A stretch of DNA of 32,000 nucleotides from Geotalea uraniireducens Rf4 (GTDB taxonomy: Bacteria; Desulfobacterota; Desulfuromonadia; Geobacterales; Geobacteraceae): positions 1,080,001 to 1,112,000 of the forward strand of contig NC_009483.1 in NCBI RefSeq assembly GCF_000016745.1. Reading direction: 5' to 3'. The position numbers and the translations under genes were made by a program. This document shows positions 2,450 through 21,315 of the stretch, piece by piece. Within the stretch, counting starts at the first letter, position 1. Each line of letters opens with the position of its first letter. Under the pieces are notes generated by a model that was not told the DNA's origin, searched no databases, and saw nothing but the letters and a program-made list of their open reading frames with translations.

Positions 2450-3391
2450 ATGGAAACGCTCTATTTGAAGACTCTTGTTGTGGCGGTTGATTCAGGAAGC
2501 TTTTCCAAGGCGGCAACGGTACTGAACATAACGCAATCTGCCGTCTCGCAGCGGATCAAGTTTCTGGAGGATCGCTATGGTTACCAGTTACTGGATCGAT
2601 CTGGTCCGGTTCTGGTTGCCACGGAAGCAGGCAGGGTGGTTCTGGCAAAAGCAGAAGAGATACTGCGTATTGAATCTGAGCTCAGCAACGAACTGAAGCA
2701 CATGGAGGGTAAACCACGCCTTTCTCTCTGCTGTACACCAACCTTCGGCATCGTCTATCTCCCCAACGTGTTGAACAGGTTCATTTTGCAAAATGCGGAC
2801 ATCGTTGACCTGAAATTCATGTTTTATACCCCTGAACAGGCAATAAAGGGTTTGCATGAAAACGAGTTCGACGTGGGGGTTATTGAACACTGTGAGGCAC
2901 TGGAACTTTCAGAGTTCAAGACGTTTCAACTACCCCGCGACGAGCTGGTTTTTATCAGTTCGCCCGGCTTGCAACTACCATCAATGGACGTGGATATCGA
3001 CCATCTGTTGCATCACCGCTTGATAGCCCGCAAAGTCGGTTGCAGTTCCAGGAAACTGCTCGAGCTGAACATGACTGCTATAGGGAGAAGTCTGAAAGAT
3101 TTCAAGAGGATGATCATCTATGACGACTTACGTTTGACTATCGATACCGTCATTGGCGGGGGAGGTATCGCGTTTGTATCCAGAAGCCTCGTGAAAAAAC
3201 AACTTGAGGAAGGTTCGCTCCTTGAGCATCGACTGCCTGGTTTTACCCATAATCGCTTTCGCACTGTTGCTCTAAACAAAAAAAGAACTCCGGATAAAGT
3301 TCTTCAGAATTTTATGGATTGCATTTTTACCACGTTCCCATCGGTTTCGGTGGAAGAAGAGGGGGATTCAAACCAGAATTGTCGACTATGA
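2450..3391 (+). CDS. LysR-family transcriptional regulator
   Basis: 313-aa ORF. N-terminal wHTH is FSKAATVLNITQSAVSQRIKFLEDRYG, followed by a LysR substrate-binding-type C-terminal region. The gene and its upstream region look more AT-rich than their neighbours. Confidence 0.88.
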   Translation: METLYLKTLVVAVDSGSFSKAATVLNITQSAVSQRIKFLEDRYGYQLLDRSGPVLVATEAGRVVLAKAEEILRIESELSNELKHMEGKPRLSLCCTPTFGIVYLPNVLNRFILQNADIVDLKFMFYTPEQAIKGLHENEFDVGVIEHCEALELSEFKTFQLPRDELVFISSPGLQLPSMDVDIDHLLHHRLIARKVGCSSRKLLELNMTAIGRSLKDFKRMIIYDDLRLTIDTVIGGGGIAFVSRSLVKKQLEEGSLLEHRLPGFTHNRFRTVALNKKRTPDKVLQNFMDCIFTTFPSVSVEEEGDSNQNCRL

Positions 3392-3422: not shown

Positions 3423-3459
3423 AAAAAAGCCCGGGGATCTCTCCCCGGGCTTTTTGCTG
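3423..3459. terminator. Bidirectional rho-independent terminator, copy 2 of the identical module
   Basis: Same 37-nt string as at 2201-2237. It lies between the convergent LysR gene (+, ends 3391) and cytochrome paralog A (-, ends 3486). Confidence 0.85.
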
Positions 3460-4045
3460 CGCTGGCACTTCCTTTCGTTACTTTGCTACAGGGTTACGGT
3501 GATGTAGTTGTACTTGCTGTCCACCTGCACTCCGTTTTTGTAGACGAGCACCGTCAGCTTTTTCGTGCCGGTTGTGGCATAAATATGATTGGCAGTGGCC
3601 GAACTGCCGGCGGCGCCCACGTGCGGCAGGGTGGTCGAAGTCCCGTCGGCCCAGATGATCCGCAGGGAGTCGTGGTCCTTCAGGTTGCCGAAGGTGTAGG
3701 TGCTTGAAATCCCTCTTCTGGCAGTGGTCGGACCGATGGTCATCCCGACAACGGGCGGGTTAACCACGTTGAGTGTCCTGGATACTGTTGCCGTTTTCCC
3801 TTCCTCATCGGTCACCTTGAGGGTGACGGCGTAGGTGCCGAGGGTGGAGAAGGTCTTGCTGGCGGATGGTCCGCCGGCAGTGGTGCCGTCGGTAAAGGAG
3901 AGGCTGTAGGTAAAGAAGCCGTTGCTGTTGACCCCGGTATCGGCGGACAGGGTATAAGGGGTGTTGACCACCAGCTGATACCCAGCGGTATTGGGGTCGG
4001 CATCGGGGAAGCCGGCAGGAAACTGGGCGACGGGATCAACTCCGA
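3423..4045 (-). repeat. Duplicated 3' module, copy A (terminator + PKD-like C-terminal domains); partner at 7505..8128
   Basis: Aligned by eye at offset +4080, becoming +4083 after one 3-nt indel. The terminator is identical. The next ~300 nt differ at roughly one position in ten. Similarity decays by about 4045/8128. Confidence 0.85.
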
Positions 4046-6983
4046 AACCTGTTTTTGCCTGTTGTGCCGGGTCGGCAAAGCTGTTCAGATAGGCAACCCA
4101 TGCCTTCCGGTCACTGGTTGCCACGGCTGCGCCGGTCTGGTCTGTGGTTATTCCTTTGTACTGCTTGTCAATCCATAGAGATCCGGCCAGCCCGAGTGGT
4201 CCGGCATCGCTCTGAGGATGGATGCGGACGCTGTAGCCGTTGCGCCCTTCGATGAGGAGCCCGCTGCCGTTGGCCCTGATGCCGAATTCCGGCTGTCCTC
4301 CGCTGTAAGAGGTGCCGTCCCAGGTTCCGGTGAATGCAGCGCCGAGGTTAGTGAGGAGACCGGCCATATCGGTGACAAGGGCCGACACCTGTTTCGTTCG
4401 GGTTACGACCGTTACGCCGGAGTTGTTGGTGGCTTCAATCTTGAGCAGCCACCCCTGGCTGGTGGTAGTGGTGCTTGTTGCTGCCGGGAACGTGATGGCA
4501 GTCCCGCTGATACTGGTGTTAAAGGCAGTATTACGGGCCTTGAAGGCGTTTTCATACAGCCCTTCGCTGCGATCGATGTCGCGGATTGTGGTCGCGTTGG
4601 AGGCGAATTGAACTGCAAGCGAGCGAACACCGCTTCTTTCCTTGACTCCGGGATGGAAATCCGAGGGCTGGGTGGAGGCGTTGACCGAGGCGAACGGGGT
4701 AACCTGTGCGCCGCCGCCGGTCCAGGACATATTCAGGGTATCCCCTTTGACAACGAACTTGCCGTTATAGAAGCCGCCTGCAGTGGTGTCGCCGATGGTT
4801 CCCGCAGAACTGGCGCTGGTGGACCCTTTGTGGCAGTCGCCGCAGCCGCCTGATCCCCAGGCAGAGTCGGCTGGGGAGATGTCATGGTTCGTTTTGAACG
4901 TAACCCCCATGAAAGAGAGCTTGGTTACATGGGTCTTGGTATTATTGCCTGTGGAACCCGGTGTCGATTTAAGGCCAAGCTGGTATTCAAGATCACGGTC
5001 AATGGCGTTGATGTGGTCGCTGATATCTGCTGCAGTGACGGTACCAAGCTGGGTAAGCGCAACCAGTTGTTGACCGGGCCGTAATGAATAGGTATTAGCC
5101 TTGTTGATGTTTGCCACGTGGGTTTGCAGGAGGGAATCCATCCCACCGGCTCTGCCGTCGTTGTTGGCGTCAAAATTGACATCATTTTTGTCTCGCCAGA
5201 AGAGTGATGTGGAGAGATTGGCAGCCGTCAGTTTGTTTCCTTGCCAGGCCATGAAGTTATTATTGGTCATGTTCTGGCGGGTTACATTCTCGTTCTCATG
5301 ATCGGCAAGCCGTCCTTCGGCATCGTTGCCGGTGCCGTCAACCATGGCTCCGCCGGTGAAGTTCCCCAGTTTTCGTGAATGGCAGGCTTCACAGGCGATC
5401 AGGTCGAGATGGCCGACGTTGGCCGTGCCGTTCATGGTCCCCCCCTGCTGGACAATCTTTGCGGTCAGACCTTTCGCCTGATGTGCAGCCGTGGGATTCG
5501 GTGCACCGTGGGTCTCGTAGGAGATGACGCTCTGGGTTGCCGGATCGAAATCCCCACCATAGATATGACAGCCGCTGCAGTTCTTGGTGGTGTTGTCCGT
5601 TGCATTCCAGAGGGATTCGTAGGCGCCGTTACCCTTGGCTGGATCGCACTGGCCGAGTTTTTTCGAATCGTCGCCGGGGCTGGCCGAGCTGATGTTGTTA
5701 AAGCCGTAGGTACCCTTGAGGCCCGTGAAGCCGGAAGTCCCTACTTTGGAGAAATCAGCGTCCTTGCGTTTGTGGCATCCCATACAGCCCATGCTGTAAT
5801 GGACTTCGGCGGTACCGGACCAGGTGTCACCCCTCTTTTTCCAGTCAACGGCATGTTCAGCCATGTGGCAGCCGACGCAATTGTTGGAATCGGGAGTGGC
5901 CAGAATGTTGCCGGCGACCGTGCCGGCCAGCTTGAGGGCGGAGTTGTCCCCGGTCGGCACGACTTTCAACGGGTCGTAGGTAACATTGACGCCATCTGTC
6001 GGACTTGCAGCACCGAGCAGCGCGCCGGTTGTTCGTGAAGCATCGAATTTGCCGGTACGAACCGCTTTTTTGCGCTCTTCCCAGGAATAATCCTTCAGGT
6101 GGCACATCAGGCAATCCATTTCAAGGACGCCGGTCTGGCTGTAATCGTTCTGAACCGCCGCATAGCTGGCTGGGGTGCCGTCCGTATTGAAGCCGTCACC
6201 GCGGCTGCCGTAAACATCGATGAAGTAGTTGAAAGCGGTTACAGCACTCCCGAAGAAATAATCACGCAAAGAGGTCCGCACTTCCGGACTTTTGCCGGGA
6301 ACGTACTCATTGGCGCCGCCACCCACATGGCATTCAGCGCAATCCCGCATGGAGCCGGCCATGGAGTTGTCGACCCTGGCCTTGAACAGCTGTTGCGCAG
6401 TAAGGCCGGGAAGTAGGGCCGCACTGGTGGGAAATGAAGCATCACCGTATGTGGTGCCGTAATCATAGGGGCTGAACGTTGTAAAGGGGTTATTCTTGAA
6501 TTTTGCCGCAGTTCCATCGTAGGTCGTTCCTGCACCATCTTTGAATAATCTCGCCAACTGGCGAGCGGAGGGTGGTCACCACGCCCCCACATGGCCGGGG
6601 CCCTGGACCCAGTTTTTGCCCTGGGGACCAGCGCCACTGACGACGGGATCCCCGGAATCGGGGTTCCAGTTGTTCCACCCCCGTTGTTCGTTTGAGGCCA
6701 GTTGGGCGTGATAGCTGTGCCGCTCGATCTGGTCATAGCTTAGCAGAGCTTTGCCGGACGAGGGGGCAATGGTTGAACCATTATGGCAGGCGCCACAGGT
6801 GTTCTTCATGCTGAAAGCCTTGGTGCTGCCGGGGGTGATCGGGTTTCCGCCGGCCGGGCCTGCATCACGGAGCAGTATGTTGTCGTGGGCCGGATTGTAA
6901 GCCACTGCTGTTCCAGCAATTAGAAGAACTGCGCTGGAAATCAGGCCAAGCTTCAATCGGCCATAGGCTGATATTCTTGTCAT
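3486..6983 (-). CDS. Candidate selenocysteine-containing octaheme c-type cytochrome with C-terminal PKD-like domains (paralog A, 1165 aa if UGA 6578-6576 is decoded)
   Basis: ORFs 6576..6983 and 3486..6557 are in the same frame. They are separated only by one TGA plus 6 sense codons (135+1+6+1023 aa = 3498 nt including the stop). The upstream ORF has SD AGGAGG, a signal peptide (LISSAVLLIAGTAVA) and one CXXCH (CGACH). The downstream ORF has 7 CXXCH (CAECH, CLMCH, CVGCH, CMGCH, CSGCH, CEACH, CGDCH). Its nominal TTG start has no SD and no signal peptide. The C-terminus has a PKD-like pattern (TYSLSFTDGTT...TLKVTDEEGKTATVSR). Confidence 0.6.
6550..6578 (-). promoter_or_regulatory. In-frame UGA plus SECIS-like hairpin (paralog A)
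   Basis: Minus strand reads UGG-UGA-CCACCCUCCG-CUCGCC-AGUU-GGCGAG. There is a 6-bp stem and a 4-nt loop, and the stem starts 10 nt after the UGA. Geometry matches the paralog B site. The outer stem pair is C-G here and U-A in paralog B, a compensatory change. Confidence 0.55.
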
Positions 6984-7504
6984 GTCGGTGTCTCTCCTCC
7001 TGAATTGGATGCCACCATGGGAAAGCCTTGCTTGCTTCCGCTGGTGGAGGTTGTTGTCAATATCGCCTCTGATGCGGTGGGTTTATCTTTTCCTCGATCC
7101 TCCTTTGGAATTTTTTCTTCGCGAGGTTTTGCTGTCTGGGGGGACAGGCCGCCCGGAAGCATTCAGGACGAAACTTCAAAACCTCTTGCAAACGGGAAAA
7201 CGAAACGCTTGTTATTGCCAAGCACGAATTAATCCTGAACCTCGACTAATGTGTCGTATTGTTTTGCATACCGTCATGAATAAAACTTATAAATTTATGT
7301 TTACTGGATTTCCGGAGCAGCTTGAGGGGTAGACGAAGGGAAAAAACAATATTTTGCATCAAAGATAGGATAGTGTGGCTTTTTCATAACGGCATTGAAA
7401 TTGTGAACTGTGGGGGATATGACGCAGAAGGGTAAAGAGAGTCGTCGTGTTGGGGATTTTCCCCCATTGACTGCCATGATATCAAAGATGGGAATAGTAA
7501 AATT

Positions 7505-7539
7505 AAAAGCCCGGGGATCTCTCCCCGGGCTTTTTGCTG
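7505..7539 (-). terminator. Rho-independent terminator, copy 3 of the identical module
   Basis: Sequence AAAAGCCCGGGGATCTCTCCCCGGGCTTTTTGCTG lies 26 nt downstream of the paralog B stop (7566). It is identical to the copies at 2201 and 3423. Confidence 0.85.
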
Positions 7540-8128
7540 CGTTGACACTTCCTTTCGTTACTTTGCTACAGGGTTACGGTGACGTAGTTGTACTTGCTGT
7601 CCACCTGCACCCCGTTCTTGTAGACGAGCACTGTCAGTTTCTTCGTGCCGGTAGTGGCATAAATATGGCTGGTAGTGGCCGAACTGCCGGCGGCACCCAC
7701 GTGCGGCAGGGTGGTCGAAGTCCCGTCGGCCCAGATGATCCGCAGGGAGTCGTGGTCCTTCAGGTTGCCGAAGGTGTAGCTGGTGGAGATCCCTCTTTTG
7801 GCCGTGGTCGGACCGATGGTCATCCCCCCGACAACCGGCGGGTTGACCACGTTGATGGCCCTGGATACGGTTGCCGTCTTCCCTTCCTCATCGGTCACCT
7901 TGAGGGTGACTGATGAGGTGCCGATGGTGGAGAAGGTCTTGCTGACGGATGGCCCGCTGACAGTGGTGCCGTCGGTAAAGGAGAGGCTGTAGGTGAACGA
8001 GCCGTTTGTGTTGACGCTGGTATCCGCCGCCAGGGTGTAGGGTGTGTTGACTACCAGCTGGTAGCCGGAGGTGTTCGGGTCGGCGTCCGGGAAGCTGGCG
8101 GCGAACTGGGCGACCGGGTCTACGCCGA
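7505..8128 (-). repeat. Duplicated 3' module, copy B; partner at 3423..4045
   Basis: See the partner entry. The last ~190 aa of both paralogs are nearly the same (GVDPVAQF...NGVQVDSKYNY(I/V)TVTL). Confidence 0.85.
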
Positions 8129-11100
8129 TGCCGGCGGCAGCGGCGTTGTTGTCGATGCTGAGCAGATAGCTGATCCACTCGCTCCGCTTGTAGGAGCCTG
8201 CTGTTCCCGTACCCCCCGGAGCCGTGCCGTCAGCCCTGAAGTAACCGTCGGGATCAGGATAGAGAGCTTCCCCGCGGCTCAGATCTTTAGTCTGTGTGTA
8301 AACTACGCTATTCTCAACTACTTCTTCCTCGAAAGGAACACTCCTCGGCTGGCCGAGCTTGTTGAAGAGTTCGGTACCAGTGCGAAGATCACCCTTGTAG
8401 GCCTTGATGGTCGGAATGAATACGGCAGGTCTCTCCATCATGGTTGAGGCGCTCGCGGGAATAATGCCGGGGGCCGGTGTCCAGGTAGCATCGGCGGGTA
8501 TTGCGGTACCGGTCATGTTAAAGCCGCCGTCGAAGAAGTTTTTAGCCGTTGCGTGGCAGTCGTTGCAACCGAATGTTGTTACCTTGCCTGTCGCGTCGAA
8601 GGCACGCGGCTTACCCAGGACATACTGACTGATTGGTTTGACGCCGTGGGTCACCTGGTACAGGCCGCCGATATAGCCAAGCTCGGTGCCGTCCCAGGAT
8701 TTGCCGCTCTGTCCCGGCATGTCCTTGATCCGGGTTCTGTAATTTTTGTACTCCCTGATTTCGTCAGGGGTGGTGAAGATGGTATTGCCGCCGTAAACGC
8801 CAACGTATTTCCAGGCGCCGGTGAAGCTGCCATCCATGTTGTAGGCGCTCTGGTACCTACCTCCCTGTGCAGTTGATCCGGCAACACCGTCTCCGGGACC
8901 GCCGAACCCAACCGGGATCGGGGCGAAGCCGCCGGGGGCGAAGTTAATGCCCGCCTTGAGGTCGCGCTGAATCCACGGGTCAAAGATCGGTTCGCCAAAG
9001 CCCTGGGTCGAATTGAGATCACCGACTGCCAGAATCTGCCCATTGACACCATCACCGTTGGCGTCGACAGTTGTGCCGTAGTCGTTGTTGAAGAGCGCCG
9101 AGACGATAGTGTTGGTCAGGTAAATTTTACGCCTGAAGTTCGGGCTGGTCTTCAAGCCGTTGCCGACCTTCGACCAGGTTTTCAGCGGCAGCCATTCCTG
9201 GAGTGCACCGCCGATAAGCTGGGTGCCGTATGGAATTTCGGCCTGGTAGCCAGGGCCTGGTTGATTGGTTGCGGCACAGATGGTTCCGGGGCCCTGGCTG
9301 GCAGAGGTATAGCCGCAGTTCTGGTTGATGGTCTGGTTCATGAAGTTATATTGCTGTCTGGCACCTTCGTTGGCAGCGTCCGGCGCCGGGTCTTCGAACA
9401 TGCCCATCATACCCTTGCTGTAATCGAAGCCAACCATGGTCGGGTAACGGTTGCCGCTGGTGCAGTCAAGTGCGCGGACTGCCATGCTCTTTTTCTGCAC
9501 GTGACAGACGGTGCAGTCAATGACATCAAGATGGTTGCCGGGGATGAGTTTCTGGCCGCCGCTGCCATCCGGGCCCATGGCCCTGTTGATCATGGCGGTG
9601 AGGCCTGCTCTCTGATGTGCTGCTGTGGGGTCCGGGGCCCCCATGACATCTATCGGATTGCCGTCGGGGTTGCTGCCGGAGAGATGACAGCTTTCACAGC
9701 GTTTGACGGTATTGCGGCTGTCGACCTTGGTGCCGATCTGCGAGCCGTCTGCTATGGTGCCTGAGCCGTCGAAACCGCGGCCGGGATCACACTGATTCTT
9801 GTCGGGATTGGAACTGTTGGTGTCCATGTGACAGCCTGCGCAGCCAAGGCTGCCATGAATCTCCTGGCCATTCTGCCAGGCATCGCCACGCTTGAACCAG
9901 TCGGCACGAGGGAAGGGTACGGTGGATTTCTTCAGTACGTTCTGGTTCTGCTGTCCCGTGAAATCGGCGGTAAGGCCGATTTCCGTAACCGGTGCCTCAT
10001 AGTAGATCGGGCCGCTGGCACCTTTATTGTCACCACCGAAGGAGGTCATGCCGTTGACGGTCAGCCTGTTGTAGACGGTTGACCCCTGGGCGGCAAGGAT
10101 GCCGCGGACCATGTAACTGTAGAGGTTGGTCGCGTCGATCAATGGCGAATTGGGGGAGCCGGGGTATTTATCGGGAGATGGCATCCACGGCGCATTAAAA
10201 TCGTAGGCCGGCATTACCAGCCCGGTCGGGCCTACCATCGGATTGTTTACATTGGTGTTCAGGATCATCGGCGCCGAAGAGAGGAACCCGGTCATCATTT
10301 CCGGCAGATCCTTGAGAGTGTTCGGGCTATGACACTGCTGACAGTTGGCGCTGGGTGGCAGACGCTTGATGTTGTCAACCAGCGATTGCTTCAGACTGAC
10401 TGCCTGCATGCCGTTGGCATCTTTTGGCCCAAGTTCGATCATGGCGGCGTTGTAACCACCCTGGGTCGGGCTGCCGGGCATGAGGTCCATGAGGCCTGCT
10501 CCGGCCATTGGCGCTGCATTGAGAATGCCCATCTGCGCAAAAACTGAACTCATCAGGTTGTTGTAACCCTGGAAGTGGCAGAAAAGACAGTCCATCTCCC
10601 GTACGTTCGGCATCATCAGCTGCCCGTTCTGAATGTAAGGGGGCGTATTTGCCGTCCCATCCTGGTTCATGGCGACACTTCCCCAGCCGTTGGGAGCAAT
10701 CATCGCGTTACCGCCGCCAAGGGCCGGCGCCTTCCTGTCGGTTGTGCCGGGATAGCTCCAGGGTGCACGGATCACATTGCTTAGCGGGCTGCCTGTTTTT
10801 GCGTCCCATGCTTCGGCAACGGTGTTCATATAAGGGGTAATCGTTTGGTCGGACAACGCCCGTTGAGAAAGCCTGAAGCCGTTGCGGTCCTTTTCCACCA
10901 GGGCGCCGCCTACGTGGCAGCTGCCGCAGTTGGTCGCCATGTCCCATACGGAAAGGTCGACCTTGGTATACTTGCTGCCTGCTACATCACCAAAAAGAAA
11001 TTTATCTGTAGTTGGATAGGTTAAATCGGAACCACCTGGTTGTTTCATTAAATTCGCCACCTGGCGAAGAGAGGGGCTTCACCACTTGCCCCACATGGCT

Positions 11101-11543
11101 TTGGTCTGGGTCCAGGGTTTCTGGCGGTTGACTGTGGTGTCAAAGCCGCCGGTGGGCGAATCGTTCCATTCATTGGCTCCGAGAGCCGAATGGAAGGCGT
11201 GGTCGGCCAGCGCATCGTAACTTTTCAGTGCTTTACCAGTGGATGGTGCGATTGTCGAGCCGTTGTGGCAGGAACCGCAGGTTGCCTTGGGGCTGTAAGG
11301 GAAGCCCTCCATCGGGTTTTGCGGATTGCCTCCGACCATTACCGGCATCGGTCCCATGGGGACCTTGTTGCCGCTTGCATCGACAGTGTAAGGTACACCA
11401 TACTGGATGGCTACCTCGTCGTAGGTCTTGAGCTCGATCGGCGGATGGGCTGCGAAGCTTGTGCCCAACGACAGCCCGAAACCGGTCAAGAGCGCACCGA
11501 CCGTGGCCATCATCGGCAACGAGTCTTTAAAACGCTTGTTCAT
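7566..11543 (-). CDS. Candidate selenocysteine-containing octaheme c-type cytochrome with C-terminal PKD-like domains (paralog B, 1325 aa if UGA 11081-11079 is decoded)
   Basis: ORFs 11079..11543 and 7566..11060 are in the same frame. They are separated by one TGA plus 6 sense codons (154+1+6+1164 aa = 3978 nt including the stop). The upstream ORF has SD AAGGA, a signal peptide (MMATVGALLTGFGLSLGTSFA) and CGSCH. The downstream ORF has 7 CXXCH (CGSCH, CLFCH, CQQCH, CAGCH, CESCH, CTVCH, CNDCH). Its nominal GTG start has no SD and no signal peptide. Confidence 0.6.
11053..11081 (-). promoter_or_regulatory. In-frame UGA plus SECIS-like hairpin (paralog B)
   Basis: Minus strand reads UGG-UGA-AGCCCCUCUC-UUCGCC-AGGU-GGCGAA. 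There is a 6-bp stem and a 4-nt loop containing GG. The loop begins 17 nt after the UGA. Confidence 0.55.
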
Positions 11544-11696
11544 GACTATTCCTTTCGTTTTTGAGTTTTTTTCACGGTCTGTGAGATCCGCGCTTTTCCA
11601 CCCCCGTAAATTTCCTCCTGCACTGGGGGATGCAGTGGATTGGGGCAGTTCTTTTGCAAAGCCAAACGGGTCGGGAATGGAAACGTTTTATTAGGT

Positions 11697-11712
11697 AGCA
11701 TTAAATATGCCT
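11697..11712 (-). promoter_or_regulatory. Possible sigma-54 (-24/-12) promoter for paralog B
   Basis: Minus strand is AGGCAT-ATTTA-ATGCT against the consensus TGGCAC-N5-TTGCW. GG and GC have correct spacing. It lies ~150 nt upstream of the ATG at 11543. This match is weaker than the one at 14153-14168. Confidence 0.35.
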
Positions 11713-11873
11713 TTATTTGCATAATAATATATTGAGTTAATGGAATTGATGCGCATCCATCTTGTGAGCGGTTTTCGGCAAATTTTCAGAGGGGCTTATT
11801 GGTTGAATGGTGAGGTTGCATAGGGGGTGGATGACGCATTTTTTCAAAAAGCAGGGGGATAGTGCGCAGCTGT

Positions 11874-11900
11874 GGGGCATTTGCCCCGCAAATCCGGGGC
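11874..11900. promoter_or_regulatory. GGGGCA-TT-TGCCCC palindrome plus an overlapping GCCCCG-N6-CGGGGC palindrome (possible enhancer-binding site and/or post-NHL hairpin)
   Basis: Sequence is GGGGCATTTGCCCCGCAAATCCGGGGC. It starts 5 nt downstream of the NHL gene stop and lies ~160 bp upstream of the candidate -24 element at 11712. The same GGGG-N6-CCCC core occurs at 14301-14314. Confidence 0.3.
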
Positions 11901-11904
11901 GACG

Positions 11905-13044
11905 TTATTTGCCGGCAGCTACGGCCTGGAGAGGTGCGTTGTTACCGAGTGGCGGGGTTGTGTTGTTCTGCTGAGCGGAGACCTTTTGGTGGCCGAAGCC
12001 GTAAACGCTTATCTTTCTTGGTCCTGCCTGGTTGGTGACGAATATCAGTTGCTCCACCTCAAAGGCGGGGTCGGCAAACCGTCGAAAGTATTCAAGGTTG
12101 TCGCGGCTGATGGCTATATCGGCGGGGAGATTCAAGGTTCCCGCCTTTGATCCCCGTTCGCCGAAGAACATGAGCAGTTGGGCATCCTGATTGAAAATCT
12201 GGACAACCTGATGGCCGGCGTCGACCACGTAGATCAATCCATCATCGTCCACCGCAATCCCTTTGGGTCTGGCAAACTGTCCCGGCCGGTCCCCCGTCTC
12301 ACCAAAGGCCTTCATCACCTTGCCCGTCCGGTCCATCTTGATTATCCGGTTGTGTCCCAGGTTGGTTACGTAGACGAAACCGTTTTTGTCCAGGGCAAGG
12401 TTGGTCGGCAGGGACAATGTTTCATCCGGTTTGCCCTCCCTGCCGATGCTCCTGATCAGGTTTCCGCTCTTCCTGTCCAGTACCTTCACTTCACTGCTGC
12501 TGTAATCGACGACGAATATTTCGTCGCCATAGATTGCCACATCCGTTGGTTTCGTGATCTCCCTGGCAAGGGTTCTTTGCAAATCCCCTTCCGGCGTGAA
12601 CTGCAAGACCGCTTTCTTGCCGGTATCAGCCACATAGATGTTCCCCTCCTGGTCAAGTGCTATGTTGATCGGTGTTTGCATGGCATCCTGCCTGAACAGG
12701 GCATATGTTTTCTGTTCAAAGTCAATGGCGGACAGCTGCGCAAAAGGGGTATCGGAAACGTATATTTTGCTCCCCCTGACGGCGATGCCGTAAGGTTTTG
12801 AGAGCGTTTCCCCCGGTTCGGCTGTATTCGGGAGAAATGGCAGCAGCGCAGGTTTTACATCAGCGGCGCTGGATATGCTGGTAAGGTACTGTAAGTGGGG
12901 CGGGTTCGGGGCTGGGGGGAAATAAACCGTTTCCTTTGCGGGTTTGTTCAGGGCACAGCCGGTGAGCCAGAAGGGGAGCAGCAATAAGAGAAGAAAAGGC
13001 TTGAAGGTTGGTTTTCCGACGGCGTTAGGGCGATGGGGGTGCAT
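11905..13044 (-). CDS. NHL-repeat (beta-propeller) lipoprotein
   Basis: I place the start at ATG 13044, which has SD GGAGA 8 nt upstream. The 13125 start has no SD. Lipobox is LLLLLLPFWLTGC. Repeated NHL-type blades include GNIYVADTGKKAVLQF, DEIFVVDYSSSEVKVLD, GFVYVTNLGHNRIIKMD and GLIYVVDAGHQVVQIF. Confidence 0.8.
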   Translation of the reverse strand: MHPHRPNAVGKPTFKPFLLLLLLPFWLTGCALNKPAKETVYFPPAPNPPHLQYLTSISSAADVKPALLPFLPNTAEPGETLSKPYGIAVRGSKIYVSDTPFAQLSAIDFEQKTYALFRQDAMQTPINIALDQEGNIYVADTGKKAVLQFTPEGDLQRTLAREITKPTDVAIYGDEIFVVDYSSSEVKVLDRKSGNLIRSIGREGKPDETLSLPTNLALDKNGFVYVTNLGHNRIIKMDRTGKVMKAFGETGDRPGQFARPKGIAVDDDGLIYVVDAGHQVVQIFNQDAQLLMFFGERGSKAGTLNLPADIAISRDNLEYFRRFADPAFEVEQLIFVTNQAGPRKISVYGFGHQKVSAQQNNTTPPLGNNAPLQAVAAGK

Positions 13045-13119
13045 GGTTATTAATCTCCGAATAAAGTTTCCTGCTCCGATTCTCCGGCGAACCTGTGTCG
13101 TTATTAGAGCCTTCAGGGG

Positions 13120-13152
13120 GGCCAATGGGCAGGCTGCGCCTGCCCATTGGCC
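13120..13152 (-). other. Intercistronic 14-bp perfect stem-loop between the tetraheme cytochrome and the NHL gene
   Basis: Sequence is GGCCAATGGGCAGG-CTGCG-CCTGCCCATTGGCC. No U-tract follows on the minus strand. It is therefore more likely an mRNA-stabilising, processing or attenuating hairpin than a full terminator. Confidence 0.5.
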
Positions 13153-13174
13153 GGTGAAAGCAAGAAGCCGGCTG

Positions 13175-13966
13175 CTATTTGTCGTGGCAGGTCAGGCAAA
13201 GTTTCGAGCCGTCCAATTTTACGCGCAAGAGTGGGGCCGCGGCGGTTGCGTTTGCGGTATTATGGACATCGTGGCAGGAGGCGCAGGTCAACTTGTCACC
13301 CTTGTACAAGAGCTCGCTGATGGTTGTGCACTTCCTGTCACCGGCCGGAATCCAGGAGATGTTGGCGTTGGGCTGGTGGATATACGGATCCAGGGCAGCT
13401 ACCTTCCCGTAACTGAAACCGATCGGATGGTCGTCCATCAGGTTTCCGCCGTTGGCACCCCCGAAGGCGCCATCAGGGGCAAGCACTACATGGTTAGAGG
13501 TGGGGGTGAACGACCCCATCTTGCCGCTGTAAGAATCTATGGCGGTAGTACCGTCGTGGCAACTCATGCAGAGCCGGGATGGTCCGTCCATCATATCCGC
13601 CGGATCGATCACCGCCTGTAGGCTCGCGGACTTATCCAGGTAGTCGGGCTCTGTCATGTAGTCGCCTTCCTCTATGCCGACATAGGGGAGGAAGTTCTGC
13701 GTGGTCTGCGTGTGGTTCCATAAGGGGCTGTAAGAAGCCTGGCCGGTGCTGAGAGTGTTGTGTGGCGTGTGGCAGAATTTGCATACTTGCTGCTGGTTGT
13801 CACCGTTGTTGGCTCCGCCGGTTGCCAGGGGGAGGTAGAGGTTCATGTTATGGGGCGAACTGATAACCCCGCTCCCGGGTGAGTATGAGACAAGGCCGGC
13901 GAAAGCCAAGCTTGCACTTCCCGCCAGCACGGTAACAAAAATGCCGGCAATAAAATTGAGTTTCAT
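13175..13966 (-). CDS. Tetraheme c-type cytochrome (periplasmic/secreted)
   Basis: 263-aa ORF with SD GAGGA and signal peptide MKLNFIAGIFVTVLAGSASLAFA. Four CXXCH motifs are present (CKFCH, CMSCH, CASCH, CLTCH). A CxxCHTPH...PLWN-type signature is also present. Confidence 0.85.
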   Translation of the reverse strand: MKLNFIAGIFVTVLAGSASLAFAGLVSYSPGSGVISSPHNMNLYLPLATGGANNGDNQQQVCKFCHTPHNTLSTGQASYSPLWNHTQTTQNFLPYVGIEEGDYMTEPDYLDKSASLQAVIDPADMMDGPSRLCMSCHDGTTAIDSYSGKMGSFTPTSNHVVLAPDGAFGGANGGNLMDDHPIGFSYGKVAALDPYIHQPNANISWIPAGDRKCTTISELLYKGDKLTCASCHDVHNTANATAAAPLLRVKLDGSKLCLTCHDK

Positions 13967-14152
13967 AAGTATCCTCTTTTACAAGTAAAGATGATTGGTT
14001 GTTGACGATGCATAATCAGGTTCGGCGCTTTCATTTTTCCCGTTTGGCTTTTTAGTGCATGCTGCCCGGATAAAGGGAGACTCAGCTGCTGTTCTTGCCA
14101 TTGCCCGGCTCTGCATCCTTCCCCCAAAGGAGTGCAAACGAGTATCACCGAG

Positions 14153-14168
14153 AGCAATGTTGATGCCA
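14153..14168 (-). promoter_or_regulatory. Sigma-54 (-24/-12) promoter of the cytochrome operon
   Basis: Minus strand is TGGCAT-CAACA-TTGCT, against the consensus TGGCAC-N5-TTGCW, with exact GG/GC spacing. It lies ~185 nt upstream of the ATG at 13966, immediately downstream of a sigma-54 activator gene. Confidence 0.65.
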
Positions 14169-14300
14169 TGCATGTCCGTACCCGCTGGCGGCAAGTGATA
14201 AATGCCCGAGATACGTCTAAACATCAGTATATTGCAAAACTTTCATCTCTTTGTTGCTTGCCGGCCCCTCTCTCCAGCAGAAAGTGCCGGTGAAAAAATA

Positions 14301-14345
14301 GGGGTATTTGCCCCATGTCAGGGGCCGGTTGGGTGAAAATGCCCC
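14301..14345. promoter_or_regulatory. Possible upstream activator sites (GGGGTA-TT-TGCCCC palindrome and a weaker GGGTGA-AAA-TGCCCC copy)
   Basis: 14301-14314 is GGGGTATTTGCCCC. 14331-14345 is GGGTGAAAATGCCCC. They lie ~135-175 bp upstream of the -24 element, the usual distance for bEBP binding sites. A partial IHF-like ATCAG-N4-TTG lies between them and the promoter at about 14224-14236. Confidence 0.3.
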
Positions 14346-14385
14346 AGTGGAGCATGGCCAGGGACAACCTATCCTGTTTACCCCT

Positions 14386-15888
14386 TCAGCTCACCAGATG
14401 CGGGAATAACCGTTGAGAAACGGCAGAATCCTCCCCCGTTTTCATGTCGCACCATTCGTCCTTTTGGGATGATTCCGACATGCCGAATTTTTTCATGCGG
14501 TAGCGGAGGGTGTCCCGGCTCATTTTCAGATATTTGGCTGCTTTTGTTTGGTTGCCGCCGGAGATCTCAAGCCCCATCCGGATAAGTTGACGCTCCAGTT
14601 CTTCCAGGGATATGCCGCCGGTCGGGATGGTAATATGCCCCCTGGCAAACGAATGCTGGGCAGAAGCATGTGAATCGACATGCAGGCTTTTGTTTTGTGC
14701 TGTTTCGTATTGCTGCTTTATTTCCGCGTTCAGAAAAACGGGAGTCAATATTCTGCTATGTTCGAGCATCATGGTTCGTTCTATGGCGTTACGCAGTTCC
14801 CGTACATTCCCCGGCCAGCCATAGCCGGTGAGATAAGCCATGGTTTCCGGCGACACCCCTTCCACCCTGCGCCCGTATTCTTCATTCAGCCGTTCGATGA
14901 AATACTGGACGAGGCTGGGGATATCATCCGTTCTCTCCCTCAGCGGCGGCAAGGGAATGTTCATGACGTTCAAGCGGTAAAAAAGGTCGCCTCTGAAGCG
15001 GCGTTCTTTAACCATTGCAGGTAGATCCTGATGGGTGGCGGCGATGATCCTCACATCAGCCTGGATGTCTTCTTCCGCACCGAGACGGCGGAACCGTTTC
15101 GTCTCAATCACCTTGAGCACCTTTGCCTGCATGGAAAAGGGCATATCGCCGATTTCGTCGAGAAAAACCGTTCCACCTTCTGCCAGTTCGAAGATCCCCT
15201 TGCGCCTCTTGCTTGCATCCGTGTACGCCCCCTTTTCATGGCCGAAAAGTTCGCTTTCCAGAAGGGTTTCCGGTATGGCGGCACAGTTGACCTCTGCAAA
15301 CGGTGCCTCGGCCCTTGCACTGTGATTGTGGATGGCCCTGGCCACAAGTTCCTTGCCGGTTCCGCTTTCACCCAGGATCAGAACAGTTTTGGCATCGGTA
15401 TCCGCACAGACCTTGATCATCTTGAAAAGGTTGACCATGCTTGCGCTGTTTCCCACGAGTTTGTCATGTTCGGTTTTCTTGCGGAGTTCCTTGCGGAAAA
15501 AATCCAGTTTTTCCCTGAGTTGCCTCTTTTCAAAAGCCTTGTCGATAACGTGGCGTAACGCTTCCATATTGAATGGCTTGCCGATATAGTCTTCCGCACC
15601 TAGCTTCAAGGCTCTGACAGCGGAATCGACATCGGCATTGGCAGTGATCATTATTACGCTGAGCTCTTCATCTCTGAGTTTGAATTGCTGGAGCAGGTCC
15701 AGACCATCGGCATCGGGGAGCCGTATATCAAGTAGTGCCATATCAGGCTTGAACAGGGAGAGTTTATTGATTGCTTCCGACCCGCTGGCAGCGGTTTCGA
15801 CCGCATACCCGGCTTTTGAGAGCATGACGGATAGGGACCAGGAAATAAGCTTTTCATCATCGACGATTAATATCCTGTTATGCTCCAT
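14386..15888 (-). CDS. Sigma-54-dependent response regulator (NtrC family)
   Basis: I place the start at ATG 15888 (MEHNRILIVDDEK), which has SD GAGGA 9 nt upstream. The longer ORF runs to 16005. It has a CheY-like receiver, an AAA+ domain with GESGTGKE, a variant sigma-54 contact loop GAYTDA, and a C-terminal Fis-type HTH (GGNQTKAAKYLKMSRDTLRYRMKKFG). Confidence 0.88.
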   Translation of the reverse strand: MEHNRILIVDDEKLISWSLSVMLSKAGYAVETAASGSEAINKLSLFKPDMALLDIRLPDADGLDLLQQFKLRDEELSVIMITANADVDSAVRALKLGAEDYIGKPFNMEALRHVIDKAFEKRQLREKLDFFRKELRKKTEHDKLVGNSASMVNLFKMIKVCADTDAKTVLILGESGTGKELVARAIHNHSARAEAPFAEVNCAAIPETLLESELFGHEKGAYTDASKRRKGIFELAEGGTVFLDEIGDMPFSMQAKVLKVIETKRFRRLGAEEDIQADVRIIAATHQDLPAMVKERRFRGDLFYRLNVMNIPLPPLRERTDDIPSLVQYFIERLNEEYGRRVEGVSPETMAYLTGYGWPGNVRELRNAIERTMMLEHSRILTPVFLNAEIKQQYETAQNKSLHVDSHASAQHSFARGHITIPTGGISLEELERQLIRMGLEISGGNQTKAAKYLKMSRDTLRYRMKKFGMSESSQKDEWCDMKTGEDSAVSQRLFPHLVS

Positions 15889-17243: not shown

Positions 17244-17308
17244 ACAATTCCCGTAGTTATTTATAGTGGCTGCCAGCACTGCCCGGTTAGCTTGTTGCGT
17301 CCGCACTT

Positions 17309-17392
17309 CCCCCCTCACCCTAGCCCTCTCCCACAAGGGGCGAGGGGACTTTAAAGCTCCCCTCCCTTGATGGGAGGGGTTAGGGGAGGGTG
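17309..17392. repeat. G/C-rich REP-like double-hairpin element, copy 1
   Basis: Sequence is CCCCCCTCACCCTAGCCCTCTCCCACAAGGGGCGAGGGG..AAGCTCCCCTCCCTTGATGGGAGGGGTTAGGGGAGGGTG. A near-identical copy lies at 28889-28972 in the same orientation. Confidence 0.8.
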
Positions 17393-20991: not shown

Positions 20992-21315
20992 GGCGCAAAA
21001 TTACCATTTGCCGTATCGGCAGTCAATCTTCCCCGATTTAGAAAACAATAATTATTCTTGCGCTTGACCGGCGTGCGCTCTTTGTGCTATTTGAAAAAGA
21101 CTTTCAATTTTAAAACAACTGCGGGGGTGGACTGTAGTAGTAAGACTCAGGCTTGTTCGCGTAAAAGCAGTGGTTTATTTATTGAATGAAAGTGGATATC
21201 AAAATCATACGACGGGAAAGGAGGCGGGTAAGTCGGTGTCGCAATCGGATTGGAAACCAATAGTGTCACATCCGGAGTTTCCGGATGGCCACTAACTAAA
21301 AAGGAGAGAAGGGCA

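What the first reader, a model, noticed from the sequence alone, without database searches (positions are those of the whole stretch)
3423..15888. Locus-level view: a sigma-54-controlled module of tetraheme cytochrome + NHL lipoprotein + two giant Sec-candidate octaheme/PKD cytochromes
Gene order on the minus strand:
1. NtrC-type response regulator (15888-14386).
2. Palindromic sites, then a good -24/-12 promoter (14168-14153).
3. Tetraheme cytochrome.
4. A 14-bp stem-loop.
5. NHL beta-propeller lipoprotein.
6. A possible second -24/-12 element.
7. Paralog B, followed by a terminator.
8. A ~560-bp AT-rich spacer.
9. Paralog A, followed by a terminator.

No outer-membrane porin-type conduit component and no sensor kinase are visible in the module.

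Inference: this is a co-regulated extracellular or periplasmic redox system. Its terminal components are very large, carry only 8 hemes in 1165-1325 aa, have C-terminal PKD-like surface domains and contain a candidate Sec. That could mean a catalytic (substrate-reducing or -oxidising) role rather than a pure electron-wire role. I cannot name a described system with this composition.
Basis: inference. Interest (0 to 1): 0.8.

Follow-up and report, generated by a model that had tools for sequence, protein, structure and literature searches.

The report
Hidden selenocysteine cytochromes beside nanowire genes
Two giant secreted eight-heme proteins in this locus are read through a UGA "stop" codon as selenocysteine; they belong to a widespread, mis-annotated, enzyme-like cytochrome family that often sits next to genes for OmcE-type protein nanowires.

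Summary
The interpretation needs re-centring.

- **Nanowire genes.** The "tetraheme cytochrome" is a homologue of OmcE, the subunit of Geobacter cytochrome nanowires. The NHL lipoprotein is the beta-propeller partner typical of omcE clusters.
- **Selenoproteins.** Both giant paralogs are true selenoproteins. The in-frame TGA lies in an invariant W-U-P-P-S-x-R-Q motif. It recurs in 70 homologous genes from about 55 genomes and is never TAA or TAG. Rare homologues have Cys or Asp there. A hairpin with compensatory changes starts 10 nt downstream.
- **Annotation.** Public annotation splits each gene into a ~135-aa "cytochrome c" and a ~1000-aa "PKD domain protein". This includes the cultured Geotalea daltonii FRC-32, which has the same locus.
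- **Fold.** The heme core matches only octaheme tetrathionate reductase by fold. It matches no curated family or solved structure by sequence. MccSep, the one characterised multiheme selenoenzyme, does not match.
- **Neighbours.** OmcE-like plus NHL genes flank the family in 12 of 29 long loci. A PAS kinase/response regulator pair is the more common neighbour.
- **Sigma-54.** Control is plausible only for omcE-NHL, and the -24/-12 element is not conserved in the closest cultured relatives.

Most likely these are secreted Sec-dependent terminal oxidoreductases, probably acting on sulfur or selenium compounds. That function is inferred, not shown.

The parts
14386..15888 (-). NtrC-type response regulator / sigma-54 enhancer-binding protein (REC + AAA+ + HTH_8). 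Its sigma-54 contact loop reads GAYTDA.
   Evidence: Pfam and NCBIfam hits. Orthologues sit in the same position in L002, L003, L077 and L080. GAYTDA is conserved in the orthologues and is listed as a functional variant in PMC4641369.
14154..14168 (-). Candidate sigma-54 -24/-12 promoter, TGGCATCAACATTGC.
   Evidence: One mismatch to TGGCAC-N5-TTGC. A matching element exists in L003 (AGGCATCGAAATTGC). The GG and GC dinucleotides are lost in G. toluenoxydans and G. daltonii.
14118..14129 (-). Conserved CTTTGGGGGAAG block in the leader of the omcE-like gene. Function unknown.
   Evidence: Identical in the window, L002, L003 and L080. No Rfam match.
13175..13966 (-). OmcE-family tetraheme cytochrome, 263 aa, with a signal peptide. 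Candidate nanowire subunit.
   Evidence: phmmer E 3e-16 to 9yuq_N (16-chain entry) and 2e-14 to 7tfs (OmcE filament). The four CxxCH motifs and four further His residues align.
13120..13152 (-). 15-bp GC-rich hairpin directly after the omcE-like stop codon, with no U-run. Candidate attenuator or mRNA stabiliser.
   Evidence: dG -32.5 kcal/mol, z -6.0. A strong hairpin follows the OmcE-like gene in all 9 other loci checked.
11905..13044 (-). NHL-repeat beta-propeller lipoprotein, 379 aa, lipobox LTGC.
   Evidence: Pfam NHL E 9e-22. Sequence. Called as 379 aa in public assemblies.
7566..11543 (-). Paralog B: secreted octaheme selenoprotein, 1325 aa, with C-terminal PKD/Ig domains. Sec is residue 155.
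   Evidence: B-type orthologues occur in L002, L004-L007, L011, L018, L024 and L080.
11079..11081 (-). In-frame TGA (Sec codon) of paralog B.
11053..11068 (-). SECIS-like hairpin of B: UUCGCC-AGGU-GGCGAA, starting 10 nt after the UGA.
7505..7534 (-). Intrinsic terminator after B.
   Evidence: 13-bp stem plus T run.
3486..6983 (-). Paralog A: secreted octaheme selenoprotein, 1165 aa, with an OTR-like heme core (about residues 137-760) and C-terminal PKD/Ig domains. Sec is residue 136.
   Evidence: Homologues. Model and fold match.
6576..6578 (-). In-frame TGA (Sec codon) of paralog A.
6550..6565 (-). SECIS-like hairpin of A: CUCGCC-AGUU-GGCGAG, starting 10 nt after the UGA.
   Evidence: z -3.1. 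Family-wide, 92.9% of cells are paired and 32 cells carry compensatory changes; 0 of 500 shuffles reach this.
3425..3454 (-). Terminator after A, with the same sequence as the one after B. It lies between the convergent A and LysR genes.
2450..3391 (+). LysR regulator of the 'multiheme cytochrome-associated' family NF041036. A possible regulator of A and B.
   Evidence: 441 bits against a cut-off of 210. It is also adjacent to A in L002 and L080, in the other orientation.

Best explanation
The locus joins two things.

**1. A reduced omcE-type unit.**
- It holds a gene for an OmcE-family tetraheme cytochrome, the kind that polymerises into extracellular nanowires.
- A strong hairpin follows that gene and probably keeps subunit mRNA in excess.
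- An NHL beta-propeller lipoprotein gene comes next.
- In this genome the unit is likely driven from a sigma-54 promoter by the adjacent NtrC-type regulator.

**2. Two separately terminated genes for an unrecognised selenoprotein family.**
- Each protein has a Sec-type signal peptide, eight c-type hemes on a core with the fold of octaheme tetrathionate reductase, and C-terminal Ig/PKD domains.
- A single selenocysteine is inserted at a UGA, directed by a 6-bp hairpin that starts 10 nt downstream.
- The Sec lies in the family's most conserved non-heme block: K123...W135-U136-P-P-S-x-R141-Q142.
- It sits five residues after a His/Met position (131) that behaves like an axial heme ligand.
- A second position (446) alternates between Cys and His, as axial ligands or resolving cysteines do.

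**Inferred mechanism (not shown).** The proteins are exported and matured in the periplasm. They probably end up on or outside the cell surface. They would take electrons from periplasmic or nanowire cytochromes and use the selenolate next to a heme to attack a sulfur or selenium substrate such as polysulfide/S0, tetrathionate or selenite, as MccSep does. They would therefore be terminal oxidoreductases rather than wires.
For: **Selenocysteine**
- The TGA sits at the same motif position in 70 gene copies (65 distinct sequences) across the loci and the window. One homologue has TGT, one has GAT, and none has TAA or TAG.
- Full-length homologues with Cys (P0006) or Asp (P0007, P0008) exist.
- Hairpin covariation: 92.9% of cells paired, 32 doubly changed cells, 0 of 500 shuffles reach this. 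Some cases change the encoded residue from Ala to Ser or Pro while keeping the pairing.
- The downstream ORFs would lack any signal peptide if translated alone.
- Gene callers split the genes into fragments of ~135-154 aa and ~1000-1160 aa.

**OmcE identity**
-.
- The omcE cluster definition comes from the preprint read.
- Full clusters (cytochromes, two NHL proteins, a 670-aa barrel-like protein) lie next to A- and B-type genes in Geomonas and others.

**Enzyme-like core**
- The model of A residues 137-800 has pLDDT 86 and pTM 0.89.
- Its only significant PDB fold match is OTR, 1sp3, E 5.8e-5, probability 0.99.
- A heme-domain profile gives a weak match to NrfA.
- Conserved residues include K123, R141, R236, K383/R384 and a DxNxDG...D loop.
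- Position 131 is His in 46 sequences and Met in 6. Position 446 is Cys in 31 and His in 20.

**Precedent**

**Separate transcription units**
- Terminators and spacers separate the genes.
- The upstream region of B is conserved in G. daltonii.
Against: - No activity, localisation or selenium content was measured.
- The Sec loop could not be placed in 3D.
- The OTR match is partial: TM 0.27 normalised to the query and 0.38 to the target, 12% identity. No OTR, MccSep or ExtKL match appears at sequence or HMM level.
- Eight well-conserved non-motif His/Met residues exist. All eight hemes could therefore be six-coordinate, with no open site.
- The hairpin is still largely paired in the Cys and Asp variants, at 5/6 and 6/6 pairs. 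Part of its conservation may therefore come from the conserved R-Q-L-A codons.
- OmcE/NHL neighbours are absent from 17 of 29 long loci.
- The -24/-12 element is not conserved in the two closest cultured species.
- No tRNA-Sec or sel genes lie in the window.
Confidence: 0.6

Rival explanations
1. The TGA codons are true stops. Each "paralog" is then two genes, a small monoheme cytochrome and a separate ~1000-aa heptaheme PKD protein, as current annotation has it.
For: Public gene calls and names follow this model, for example 'cytochrome c, 1 heme-binding site' in G. daltonii and 'PKD domain-containing protein' in Geomonas. No Sec machinery is visible in the window.
Against: - The stop is always TGA, at one exact motif position, in 70 copies.
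- Protein conservation continues on both sides of it.
- Continuous Cys and Asp versions exist.
- The downstream part starts with PPSARQ and has no signal peptide, yet it must be exported for heme attachment.
- The hairpin shows covariation.
- Geobacter is a proven Sec decoder with a cytochrome precedent.
Confidence: 0.03
2. The large proteins are electron conduits or adhesins, not enzymes. They would be surface cytochromes that bind minerals or partner cells through their PKD/Ig domains. The Sec (with Cys446) would be a structural or redox-tuning element, for example a heme ligand or a selenenylsulfide.
For: - C-terminal tandem Ig/PKD domains resemble adhesins and S-layer proteins.
- There are enough conserved His/Met residues for eight six-coordinate hemes.
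- The genes lie beside extracellular electron-transfer genes.
- The Malonomonas copy tolerates Asp at the site.
Against: - Sec is costly and is almost always catalytic in bacterial selenoproteins (established knowledge; reviews read).
- The heme core matches a reductase (OTR), not MtrC, OmcS or OmcZ.
- Only 8 hemes in 1165-1325 aa is a poor wire.
- The Sec loop is the most conserved non-heme block.
Confidence: 0.22
3. The Sec-cytochromes and the OmcE/NHL unit are functionally independent. They are neighbours only because extracellular electron-transfer genes cluster, and each has its own regulation.
For: - Among the 29 long loci, the most common neighbours are a PAS-HisKA_3 kinase (22), a response regulator (21) and a SurA-like PPIase (17). 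OmcE plus NHL occur in only 12.
- In the window, B and A have their own spacers and terminators.
- Geomonas loci L012-L016 and L022 carry two or three paralogs with no OmcE-like gene within 10 kb.
Against: - The adjacency recurs across Geobacteraceae, Desulfuromonadales and Desulfobulbaceae-type MAGs, in several arrangements (16 of 54 loci).
- In the Geotalea-type loci the four genes form a compact block between the EBP and LysR.
Confidence: 0.35

Closest known systems
MccSep (ExtKL, GSU2937-2936; NCBIfam NF040886; PDB 9wt8/9wt9), the multiheme cytochrome c selenoprotein polysulfide reductase of Geobacter sulfurreducens (PMC13510729)
   Same: - A multiheme c-type cytochrome with one Sec encoded by a UGA that annotation treats as a stop, so the gene is split in two.
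- A SECIS hairpin just downstream.
- Same lineage (Desulfobacterota).
- Ig-like beta-sandwich domains.
- A candidate pairing of a Cys (possible heme ligand) with Sec.
- Local motif resemblance: GH-x(4-5)-U-P-x-[PS]-x-R.
   Different: - No detectable sequence or HMM relation (presence of MccSep in the PDB copy checked).
- 8 hemes rather than 5.
- 1165-1325 aa rather than ~450 aa.
- Sec lies near the N-terminus, between hemes 1 and 2, not in the C-terminal Ig domain.
- PKD domains suggest a surface location, whereas MccSep is periplasmic.
- The genomic partners differ.
Octaheme tetrathionate reductase OTR (Shewanella oneidensis SO_4144, PDB 1sp3; NCBIfam TIGR04315, which includes GenBank-annotated Sec-containing members according to PMC13188914)
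   Same: - Eight CxxCH hemes.
- The only significant fold match of the modelled heme core.
- In OTR a Lys (K56) upstream of heme 2 ligates the active-site heme (PMC3769277). Here an invariant Lys (K123) and the Sec lie in the equivalent stretch between hemes 1 and 2.
   Different: - No TIGR04315 hit even at E<=10, and no profile hit to 1sp3.
- The protein is 2.5-3 times larger, with long insertions and added beta-domains.
- The TM-score is low (0.27 normalised to the query, 0.38 to the target).
- The identity of any active-site ligand is untested.
omcE cytochrome-nanowire gene cluster (OmcE filament PDB 7tfs; D. soudanensis OmcE bundles, bioRxiv 10.1101/2025.10.22.684050)
   Same: - An OmcE-homologous tetraheme subunit with all four CxxCH motifs and four distal His residues.
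- An adjacent beta-propeller lipoprotein.
- Multiheme cytochromes in the cluster.
- In Geomonas and related loci the full set, including a ~670-aa barrel-like protein and a second propeller, lies directly upstream of the Sec-cytochromes.
   Different: - The window has one propeller rather than two and no barrel.
- Its two cytochromes are the Sec-octaheme family, not the small DmsE-like cytochromes of the canonical cluster.
- Polymerisation of this subunit is untested.
Outer-membrane cytochrome clusters with NHL beta-propeller proteins in Desulfovibrio ferrophilus IS5 (PMC5815863)
   Same: Multiheme cytochromes are co-expressed with NHL-repeat beta-propellers, which are proposed to scaffold an outer-membrane cytochrome complex.
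   Different: The cytochrome families differ, no selenoprotein is described there, and the comparison was not tested here.

Membership tests
Bacterial selenoprotein (SelB/SECIS-dependent UGA recoding) | In-frame UGA at a conserved position, with protein conservation on both sides | tested here: met
   70 copies have TGA in the W-U-[PS]-P-S-x-R-Q motif. None has TAA or TAG.
Bacterial selenoprotein (SelB/SECIS-dependent UGA recoding) | Stem-loop shortly downstream of the UGA with a G/U-containing apical loop, supported by covariation | tested here: met
   The 6-bp stem spans nt 14-19/24-29 with loop AGUU or AGGU. 92.9% of cells are paired and 32 carry compensatory changes; 0 of 500 shuffles reach this. 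Caveat: the stem is also kept in the Cys and Asp variants.
Bacterial selenoprotein (SelB/SECIS-dependent UGA recoding) | Homologues with Cys at the Sec position | tested here: met
   P0006 (WCPSSARQ) and L020 (TGT). Asp occurs in P0007, P0008 and L017.
Bacterial selenoprotein (SelB/SECIS-dependent UGA recoding) | selA/selB/selC/selD present in the same genome | not testable with these tools
   No tRNA gene lies in the window, and the rest of the genome is not available. Related Geobacter species decode Sec.
OmcE-family nanowire cytochrome | Significant similarity to solved OmcE filament subunits, with four CxxCH motifs and four distal His conserved | tested here: met
   E 3e-16 to 9yuq_N and 2e-14 to 7tfs. 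H39, H69, H180 and H235 align with the His residues of OmcE.
OmcE-family nanowire cytochrome | Cluster context: beta-propeller lipoprotein(s) plus a large outer-membrane beta-barrel (preprint criterion) | tested here: inconclusive
   A propeller lipoprotein is present. No barrel homologue lies in the 32-kb window. A barrel-like 670-aa protein is present in 13 related loci.
OmcE-family nanowire cytochrome | Polymerises into extracellular filaments | not testable with these tools
   Needs microscopy or biochemistry.
Octaheme tetrathionate reductase family (TIGR04315) | Match to the family HMM above its cut-off | tested here: not met
   No hit for A, P0007, P0060 or P0076 even at E<=10. No profile hit to 1sp3.
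Octaheme tetrathionate reductase family (TIGR04315) | Eight-heme core with the OTR fold | tested here: inconclusive
   Eight CxxCH motifs. 1sp3 is the sole significant Foldseek hit (E 5.8e-5, probability 0.99), but TM is 0.27 to the query and 0.38 to the target, and rmsd is 15 A.
Octaheme tetrathionate reductase family (TIGR04315) | Lys-ligated active-site heme 2 | not testable with these tools
   K123 is invariant, but no coordinates or hemes are available.
MccSep / ExtKL family (NF040886) | [quoted passage not shown] | tested here: not met
   No NF040886 hit. No match to 9wt8 or 9wt9 (their presence checked). Here there are eight hemes and an N-terminal Sec.
MccSep / ExtKL family (NF040886) | His/Cys-ligated heme next to the Sec | tested here: inconclusive
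   Position 446 is Cys in 31 sequences and His in 20, the pattern of an axial ligand. Its 3D position is unknown.
Sigma-54-dependent operon | EBP with a sigma-54 interaction domain and a functional GAFTGA-type loop | tested here: met
   PF00158 E 1e-70. The GAYTDA loop is conserved and listed as a functional variant.
Sigma-54-dependent operon | Conserved GG-N10-GC promoter upstream of the regulated genes | tested here: inconclusive
   Present upstream of the omcE-like gene in the window and L003. Absent in L002 and L080. Absent upstream of B and A.

The most novel reading that the evidence does not exclude
The Sec-octaheme proteins would be the catalytic end-pieces of OmcE-type nanowires. They would act as extracellular selenoenzymes that dock on the filament or on its outer-membrane complex. 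Docking might use the conserved His 2-5 residues from their mature N-terminus, which could fill the open heme site at a filament end. They would then reduce insoluble or poorly soluble chalcogen substrates (S0/polysulfide, Se) outside the cell. That would be a "wire plus enzyme" respiratory device with no described counterpart.
Probability: 0.12. Interest if true: 0.9.

Novelty: new variant of a known kind. Interest (0 to 1): 0.72.

Why it matters
- **Selenoproteome.** Only one multiheme cytochrome selenoenzyme, MccSep (2026), has been characterised. The 2026 selenoproteome review lists three cytochrome-type selenoprotein families, and none of them matches these proteins.
- **Annotation.** This would be a further family. 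It has roughly 60-70 clusters at 50% identity and occurs in Geobacteraceae, Desulfuromonadales and Desulfobulbaceae-type genomes. It is systematically mis-annotated as two genes.
- **Extracellular respiration.** The fold points to catalysis, and the genes lie beside nanowire clusters. This offers concrete candidates for two open questions: what sits at the business end of extracellular electron-transfer systems, and how insoluble sulfur or selenium species are handled outside the cell.
- **Testability.** The same locus is present in a cultured, fully sequenced strain, Geotalea daltonii FRC-32, so direct experiments are possible.
- **Practical consequence.** Cytochrome censuses and selenoproteome counts for these lineages are wrong for this family.

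Tried and rejected
- **Curated family for A and B.** NCBIfam and Pfam gave only PKD and generic c7/c3/MtrC-domain hits, all below or near their cut-offs.
- **Sequence relation to solved structures.** Single-sequence and two profile searches of PDB sequences gave only PKD domains, plus weak NrfA (E 1.6e-4) and 8e5f (E 2.3e-4) matches. MccSep, OTR, MtrC and OmcS/Z did not appear.
- **Full-length structure model, to place the Sec.** A Cys-type homologue (P0006, residues 1-1167) was modelled, but its N-terminal 146 residues have pLDDT below 50. Foldseek then found only Ig/FN3 adhesin-like matches for the C-terminus.
- **Riboswitch or known RNA in the leaders.** No Rfam hit at gathering thresholds in the window. 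Only a chance-level hit appeared in the omcE leader.
- **Second sigma-54 promoter and EBP palindromes.** Neither was found.
- **Barrel, 7-heme cytochrome, PPIase or PAS kinase homologues in the window.** None.
- **Correlation between Cys446/His446 and Sec/Asp at 136.** Rejected. His446 variants mostly still carry Sec.
- **Exhaustive representative search.** Beyond the top ~65 family hits it is swamped by PKD-repeat giants. It is useful only for a rough family size and for showing that most members start right after the UGA.
- **Literature.** No paper in the library describes this family as a selenoprotein.


Full report
**What is in the sequence**

On the minus strand the window encodes, in order:
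- an NtrC-type enhancer-binding response regulator at 15888-14386;
- a 420-bp spacer;
- a 263-aa tetraheme cytochrome at 13966-13175;
- a 15-bp GC-rich hairpin at 13152-13120;
- a 379-aa NHL-repeat lipoprotein at 13044-11905;
- a 361-bp spacer;
- paralog B at 11543-7566;
- a strong terminator at 7534-7505;
- a spacer (582 bp from B's stop to A's start, terminator included);
- paralog A at 6983-3486;
- the same terminator sequence at 3454-3425.

Both large genes contain one in-frame TGA, at 6578-6576 and 11081-11079, and eight CxxCH motifs. Both start with Sec-type signal peptides and end in PKD/Ig domains.

Two items were not confirmed:
- The "possible second -24/-12 element" has the wrong spacing.
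- The "palindromic sites" were not found. The clearest hairpin in that stretch looks like the terminator of the regulator gene.

**The UGA codons are selenocysteine**

A homology search returned 117 relatives. Most are about 1000 aa long and start just after the UGA position. They are annotated only as "PKD domain-containing protein" or "cytochrome c3 family protein".

Three full-length relatives bridge the site. One has Cys (P0006, GGW-C-PSSARQ). Two have Asp (P0007 and P0008 from Malonomonas rubra).

I fetched 76 loci from species-representative genomes and read the codon at the motif W-x-[PS]-P-S-x-R-Q. Across those loci and the window:
- 70 gene copies (65 distinct sequences) have TGA;
- one has TGT and one has GAT;
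- none has TAA or TAG.

Ten nucleotides after the UGA a 6-bp stem with an AGUU or AGGU loop is present. Across 63 distinct sequences, 92.9% of cells are paired and 32 cells carry changes on both sides. No shuffle out of 500 reaches this, and slid controls collapse. Several compensatory changes even alter the encoded residue while keeping the pairing. Examples are GCG (Ala) to UCG (Ser) or CCG (Pro), paired with CGC to CGA or CGG.

One caveat applies. The stem is also mostly retained in the single Cys and Asp genes found, so part of its conservation may reflect the conserved R-Q-L-A codons.

Translated alone, the downstream ORF would begin PPSARQ with no signal peptide. That is incompatible with periplasmic heme attachment.

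Public gene callers split each gene into a 124-154-aa ORF and a ~1000-1160-aa ORF. One example is "cytochrome c, 1 heme-binding site" in Geotalea daltonii FRC-32.

I regard the selenoprotein call as secure on sequence grounds. It lacks only direct protein chemistry and sight of the sel genes, and no tRNA gene lies in the window.

**What the large proteins are**

No NCBIfam or Pfam family covers the heme region. Explicitly absent are ExtKL/MccSep (NF040886), the GSU2204 family (NF041027) and the OTR family (TIGR04315). These are the three cytochrome-type selenoprotein families listed in a 2026 review of the prokaryotic selenoproteome.

Single-sequence and profile searches of all PDB sequences gave PKD domains. 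The only other matches were weak ones to NrfA and to chain 8e5f_A. MccSep is in that PDB copy and does not match.

An AlphaFold2 model of A residues 137-800 is confident, with pLDDT 86.3 and pTM 0.89. Its only significant Foldseek match in the PDB is 1sp3, the octaheme tetrathionate reductase of Shewanella. The match has E 5.8e-5 and probability 0.99, but TM is only 0.27 to the query and 0.38 to the target, at 12% identity.

The C-terminal third is made of tandem Ig/FN3/PKD-like domains that resemble adhesins.

I stitched 52 complete family members across the UGA and aligned them. The alignment shows:
- The most conserved block outside the heme motifs is K123-x-W125-x-Q127...G133-x-W135-U136-x-P138-S139-x-R141-Q142.
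- Position 131 is His in 46 sequences and Met in 6. The Met forms are the B-type proteins.
- Position 446, just before an invariant D-P, is Cys in 31 sequences, including both window paralogs, and His in 20.

His/Met and Cys/His alternation is what axial heme ligands do. A Cys there could equally be a resolving cysteine for the selenol.

Eight well-conserved non-motif His/Met residues exist, so an open coordination site is not required by the sequence.

An invariant D-x-N-x-D-G...D loop suggests a calcium site. This is inference.

[quoted passage not shown] Here the invariant Lys123 and the Sec lie in the topologically equivalent stretch. This is a lead, not a test. The N-terminal 146 residues of the only full-length model are unreliable, and no coordinates were available.

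**The small cytochrome and the NHL protein belong to a described system**

The tetraheme protein matches 9yuq_N (E 3e-16), a 16-chain entry named only "Putative multiheme cytochrome c". It also matches the OmcE filament of G. sulfurreducens, 7tfs (E 2e-14). All four CxxCH motifs and four additional His residues align.

A 2025 preprint on OmcE bundles in Desulfuromonas soudanensis states that minimal omcE clusters always encode two multiheme cytochromes, two beta-propeller lipoproteins, OmcE and a large beta-barrel.

In Geomonas paludis (L011) exactly such a set lies directly upstream of an A-type and a B-type Sec-cytochrome:
- cytochromes of 454, 203 and 549 aa;
- an OmcE-like protein of 276 aa;
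- two NHL proteins;
- a 678-aa protein with no family hit that ends in ...RRSF.

In L011 a PAS kinase/LuxR regulator pair lies between the two Sec-cytochrome genes, and a SurA-like PPIase follows them.

A strong hairpin follows the OmcE-like gene in the window and in all nine other loci inspected, often with a U-run. That fits a highly expressed major-subunit gene with reduced read-through into accessory genes. This is inference.

The window version is pared down to one propeller. It has no barrel, no PPIase and no kinase.

**Is the neighbourhood conserved?**

Partly. I clustered ORFs from 54 family-bearing loci. Among the 29 loci of at least 15 kb, the neighbours occur as follows:

| Neighbour | Loci (of 29) |
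|---|---|
| PAS-HisKA_3 kinase | 22 |
| Response regulator | 21 |
| SurA-like PPIase | 17 |
| OmcE-like plus NHL | 12 |
| 670-aa barrel-like protein | 9 |
| 7-heme cytochrome | 9 |

Across all 54 loci, OmcE-like plus NHL occur in 16.

The exact window arrangement is EBP, OmcE-like, NHL, B, A, LysR. It recurs in Geotalea toluenoxydans (L002), in a Geobacter MAG that lacks B (L003), in three metagenome contigs that carry the identical OmcE-like protein, and in G. daltonii FRC-32.

The heme domains of A and B are only 36% identical. A-type and B-type orthologues exist in many genomes, so the duplication is old. Even so, their last ~620 bp, including the terminator, are 85-94% identical at DNA level. 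That indicates recent gene conversion of the PKD module.

**Regulation**

The -24/-12 match TGGCATCAACATTGC at 14168-14154 is well placed. It is not above chance by count.
- The homologous position reads AGGCATCGAAATTGC in L003.
- It reads TGACATCAACATCGT in G. toluenoxydans and TTGCATCAACATCGT in G. daltonii. Both critical dinucleotides are lost there, although the regulator is retained.
- The regulator's sigma-54 contact loop is GAYTDA in all orthologues. That variant has been considered functional in Desulfovibrio.
- No -24/-12 element precedes B or A. Each of those genes ends in a strong terminator.
- The AT-rich region upstream of B is conserved in G. daltonii.

Sigma-54 control is therefore plausible for omcE-NHL in this genome. 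It is not demonstrated for the module as a whole.

A LysR regulator of the "multiheme cytochrome-associated" family NF041036 abuts A and is another candidate regulator.

**Mechanism proposed and its status**

Shown by sequence:
- Sec recoding;
- export signals;
- eight heme sites;
- Ig/PKD domains;
- OmcE homology;
- recurrent synteny.

Inferred:
- The proteins are terminal oxidoreductases in which the selenolate, held next to a heme by the H/M131 ligand and perhaps paired with Cys446, attacks a sulfur or selenium substrate.
- Electrons arrive through the octaheme chain from periplasmic or nanowire cytochromes.

The precedent is MccSep. There, a His/Cys-ligated heme and Sec325 reduce polysulfide and selenite and are essential for S0 respiration. 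The authors note that how extracellular sulfur species reach the periplasm is unknown.

The substrate, the location and any physical link to the filament are open. The rivals are scored in the report sections: true stops, a non-catalytic conduit or adhesin role, and functional independence from OmcE.

**Novelty and verdict**

The omcE-NHL part is a new member of a known kind. The Sec-octaheme/PKD family is, as far as the curated libraries, the PDB and the searchable literature show, an unrecognised selenoprotein family.

It works like known multiheme selenoenzymes and folds like OTR, but it fails the membership tests for both. I file it as a new variant of a known kind.

The exhaustive HMM search suggests roughly 60-70 clusters at 50% identity. 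Most start immediately after the UGA.

Interest is high for selenoprotein and extracellular-electron-transfer specialists, and the hypothesis is directly testable in G. daltonii FRC-32.

Noticed in passing
window 2450-3391 (+): This LysR regulator belongs to NCBIfam NF041036, 'multiheme cytochrome-associated LysR' (441 bits). That family is otherwise linked to the GSU2203 decaheme and the GSU2204 CXXCH beta-barrel selenoprotein. Here it is convergent with paralog A, but it is co-directional in G. daltonii and G. toluenoxydans.
   Followed up: partly
window 14118-14129 (-); also L002, L003, L080: A strictly conserved CTTTGGGGGAAG block lies about 25 nt downstream of the -12 element, in the leader of the omcE-like gene. 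It is kept even where the -24/-12 consensus is lost. It has no Rfam match and its function is unknown.
   Followed up: partly
window 3425-4043 vs 7505-8126: The 3' ends of paralogs A and B, including the terminator, are 85-94% identical in DNA. Their heme domains are only 36% identical in protein. This points to recent gene conversion of the PKD module.
   Followed up: yes
window 8-1282 (+): A second NtrC-type sigma-54 enhancer-binding protein, cut by the window start, flanks the locus on the other side.
   Followed up: no
window 16542-17336 (-): A response regulator with a C-terminal PilZ (c-di-GMP-binding) domain lies directly upstream of the EBP gene. It is syntenic in G. toluenoxydans and in the metagenome contigs.
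   Followed up: partly
window 14386-15888 (-), residues ~213-225: The sigma-54 contact loop of the EBP reads GAYTDA rather than GAFTGA in all orthologues checked.
   Followed up: yes
window 25391-26404 (+) and 21250-22575 (+): The first is a DmsE/GSU2203-like multiheme cytochrome of 337 aa with four paired-CXXCH domains. The second is a 441-aa signal-peptide protein ending ...GFVY with no family hit, possibly an outer-membrane protein. Both lie several kb from the locus, beyond housekeeping genes (fabMG-like, dnaB, recO).
   Followed up: partly
window 29043-31448 (-): This 801-aa protein is dominated by long imperfect repeats of the AEEAARIKAEQERLAAE type and is probably a coiled coil. Strong AT- and GC-skew shifts coincide with it.
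   Followed up: no
Sec-cytochrome family, A residues 605-616: An invariant D-x-N-x-D-G-x5-D loop resembles a calcium-binding site, such as those found near the active sites of NrfA-type enzymes. This is inference.
   Followed up: no
L017/L053 (Malonomonas rubra DSM 5091, NZ_FQZT01000002.1): At least four tandem paralogs of the family lie in one contig. Three carry Sec and one carries Asp at the Sec position. That makes a natural comparison set for the role of the residue.
   Followed up: partly
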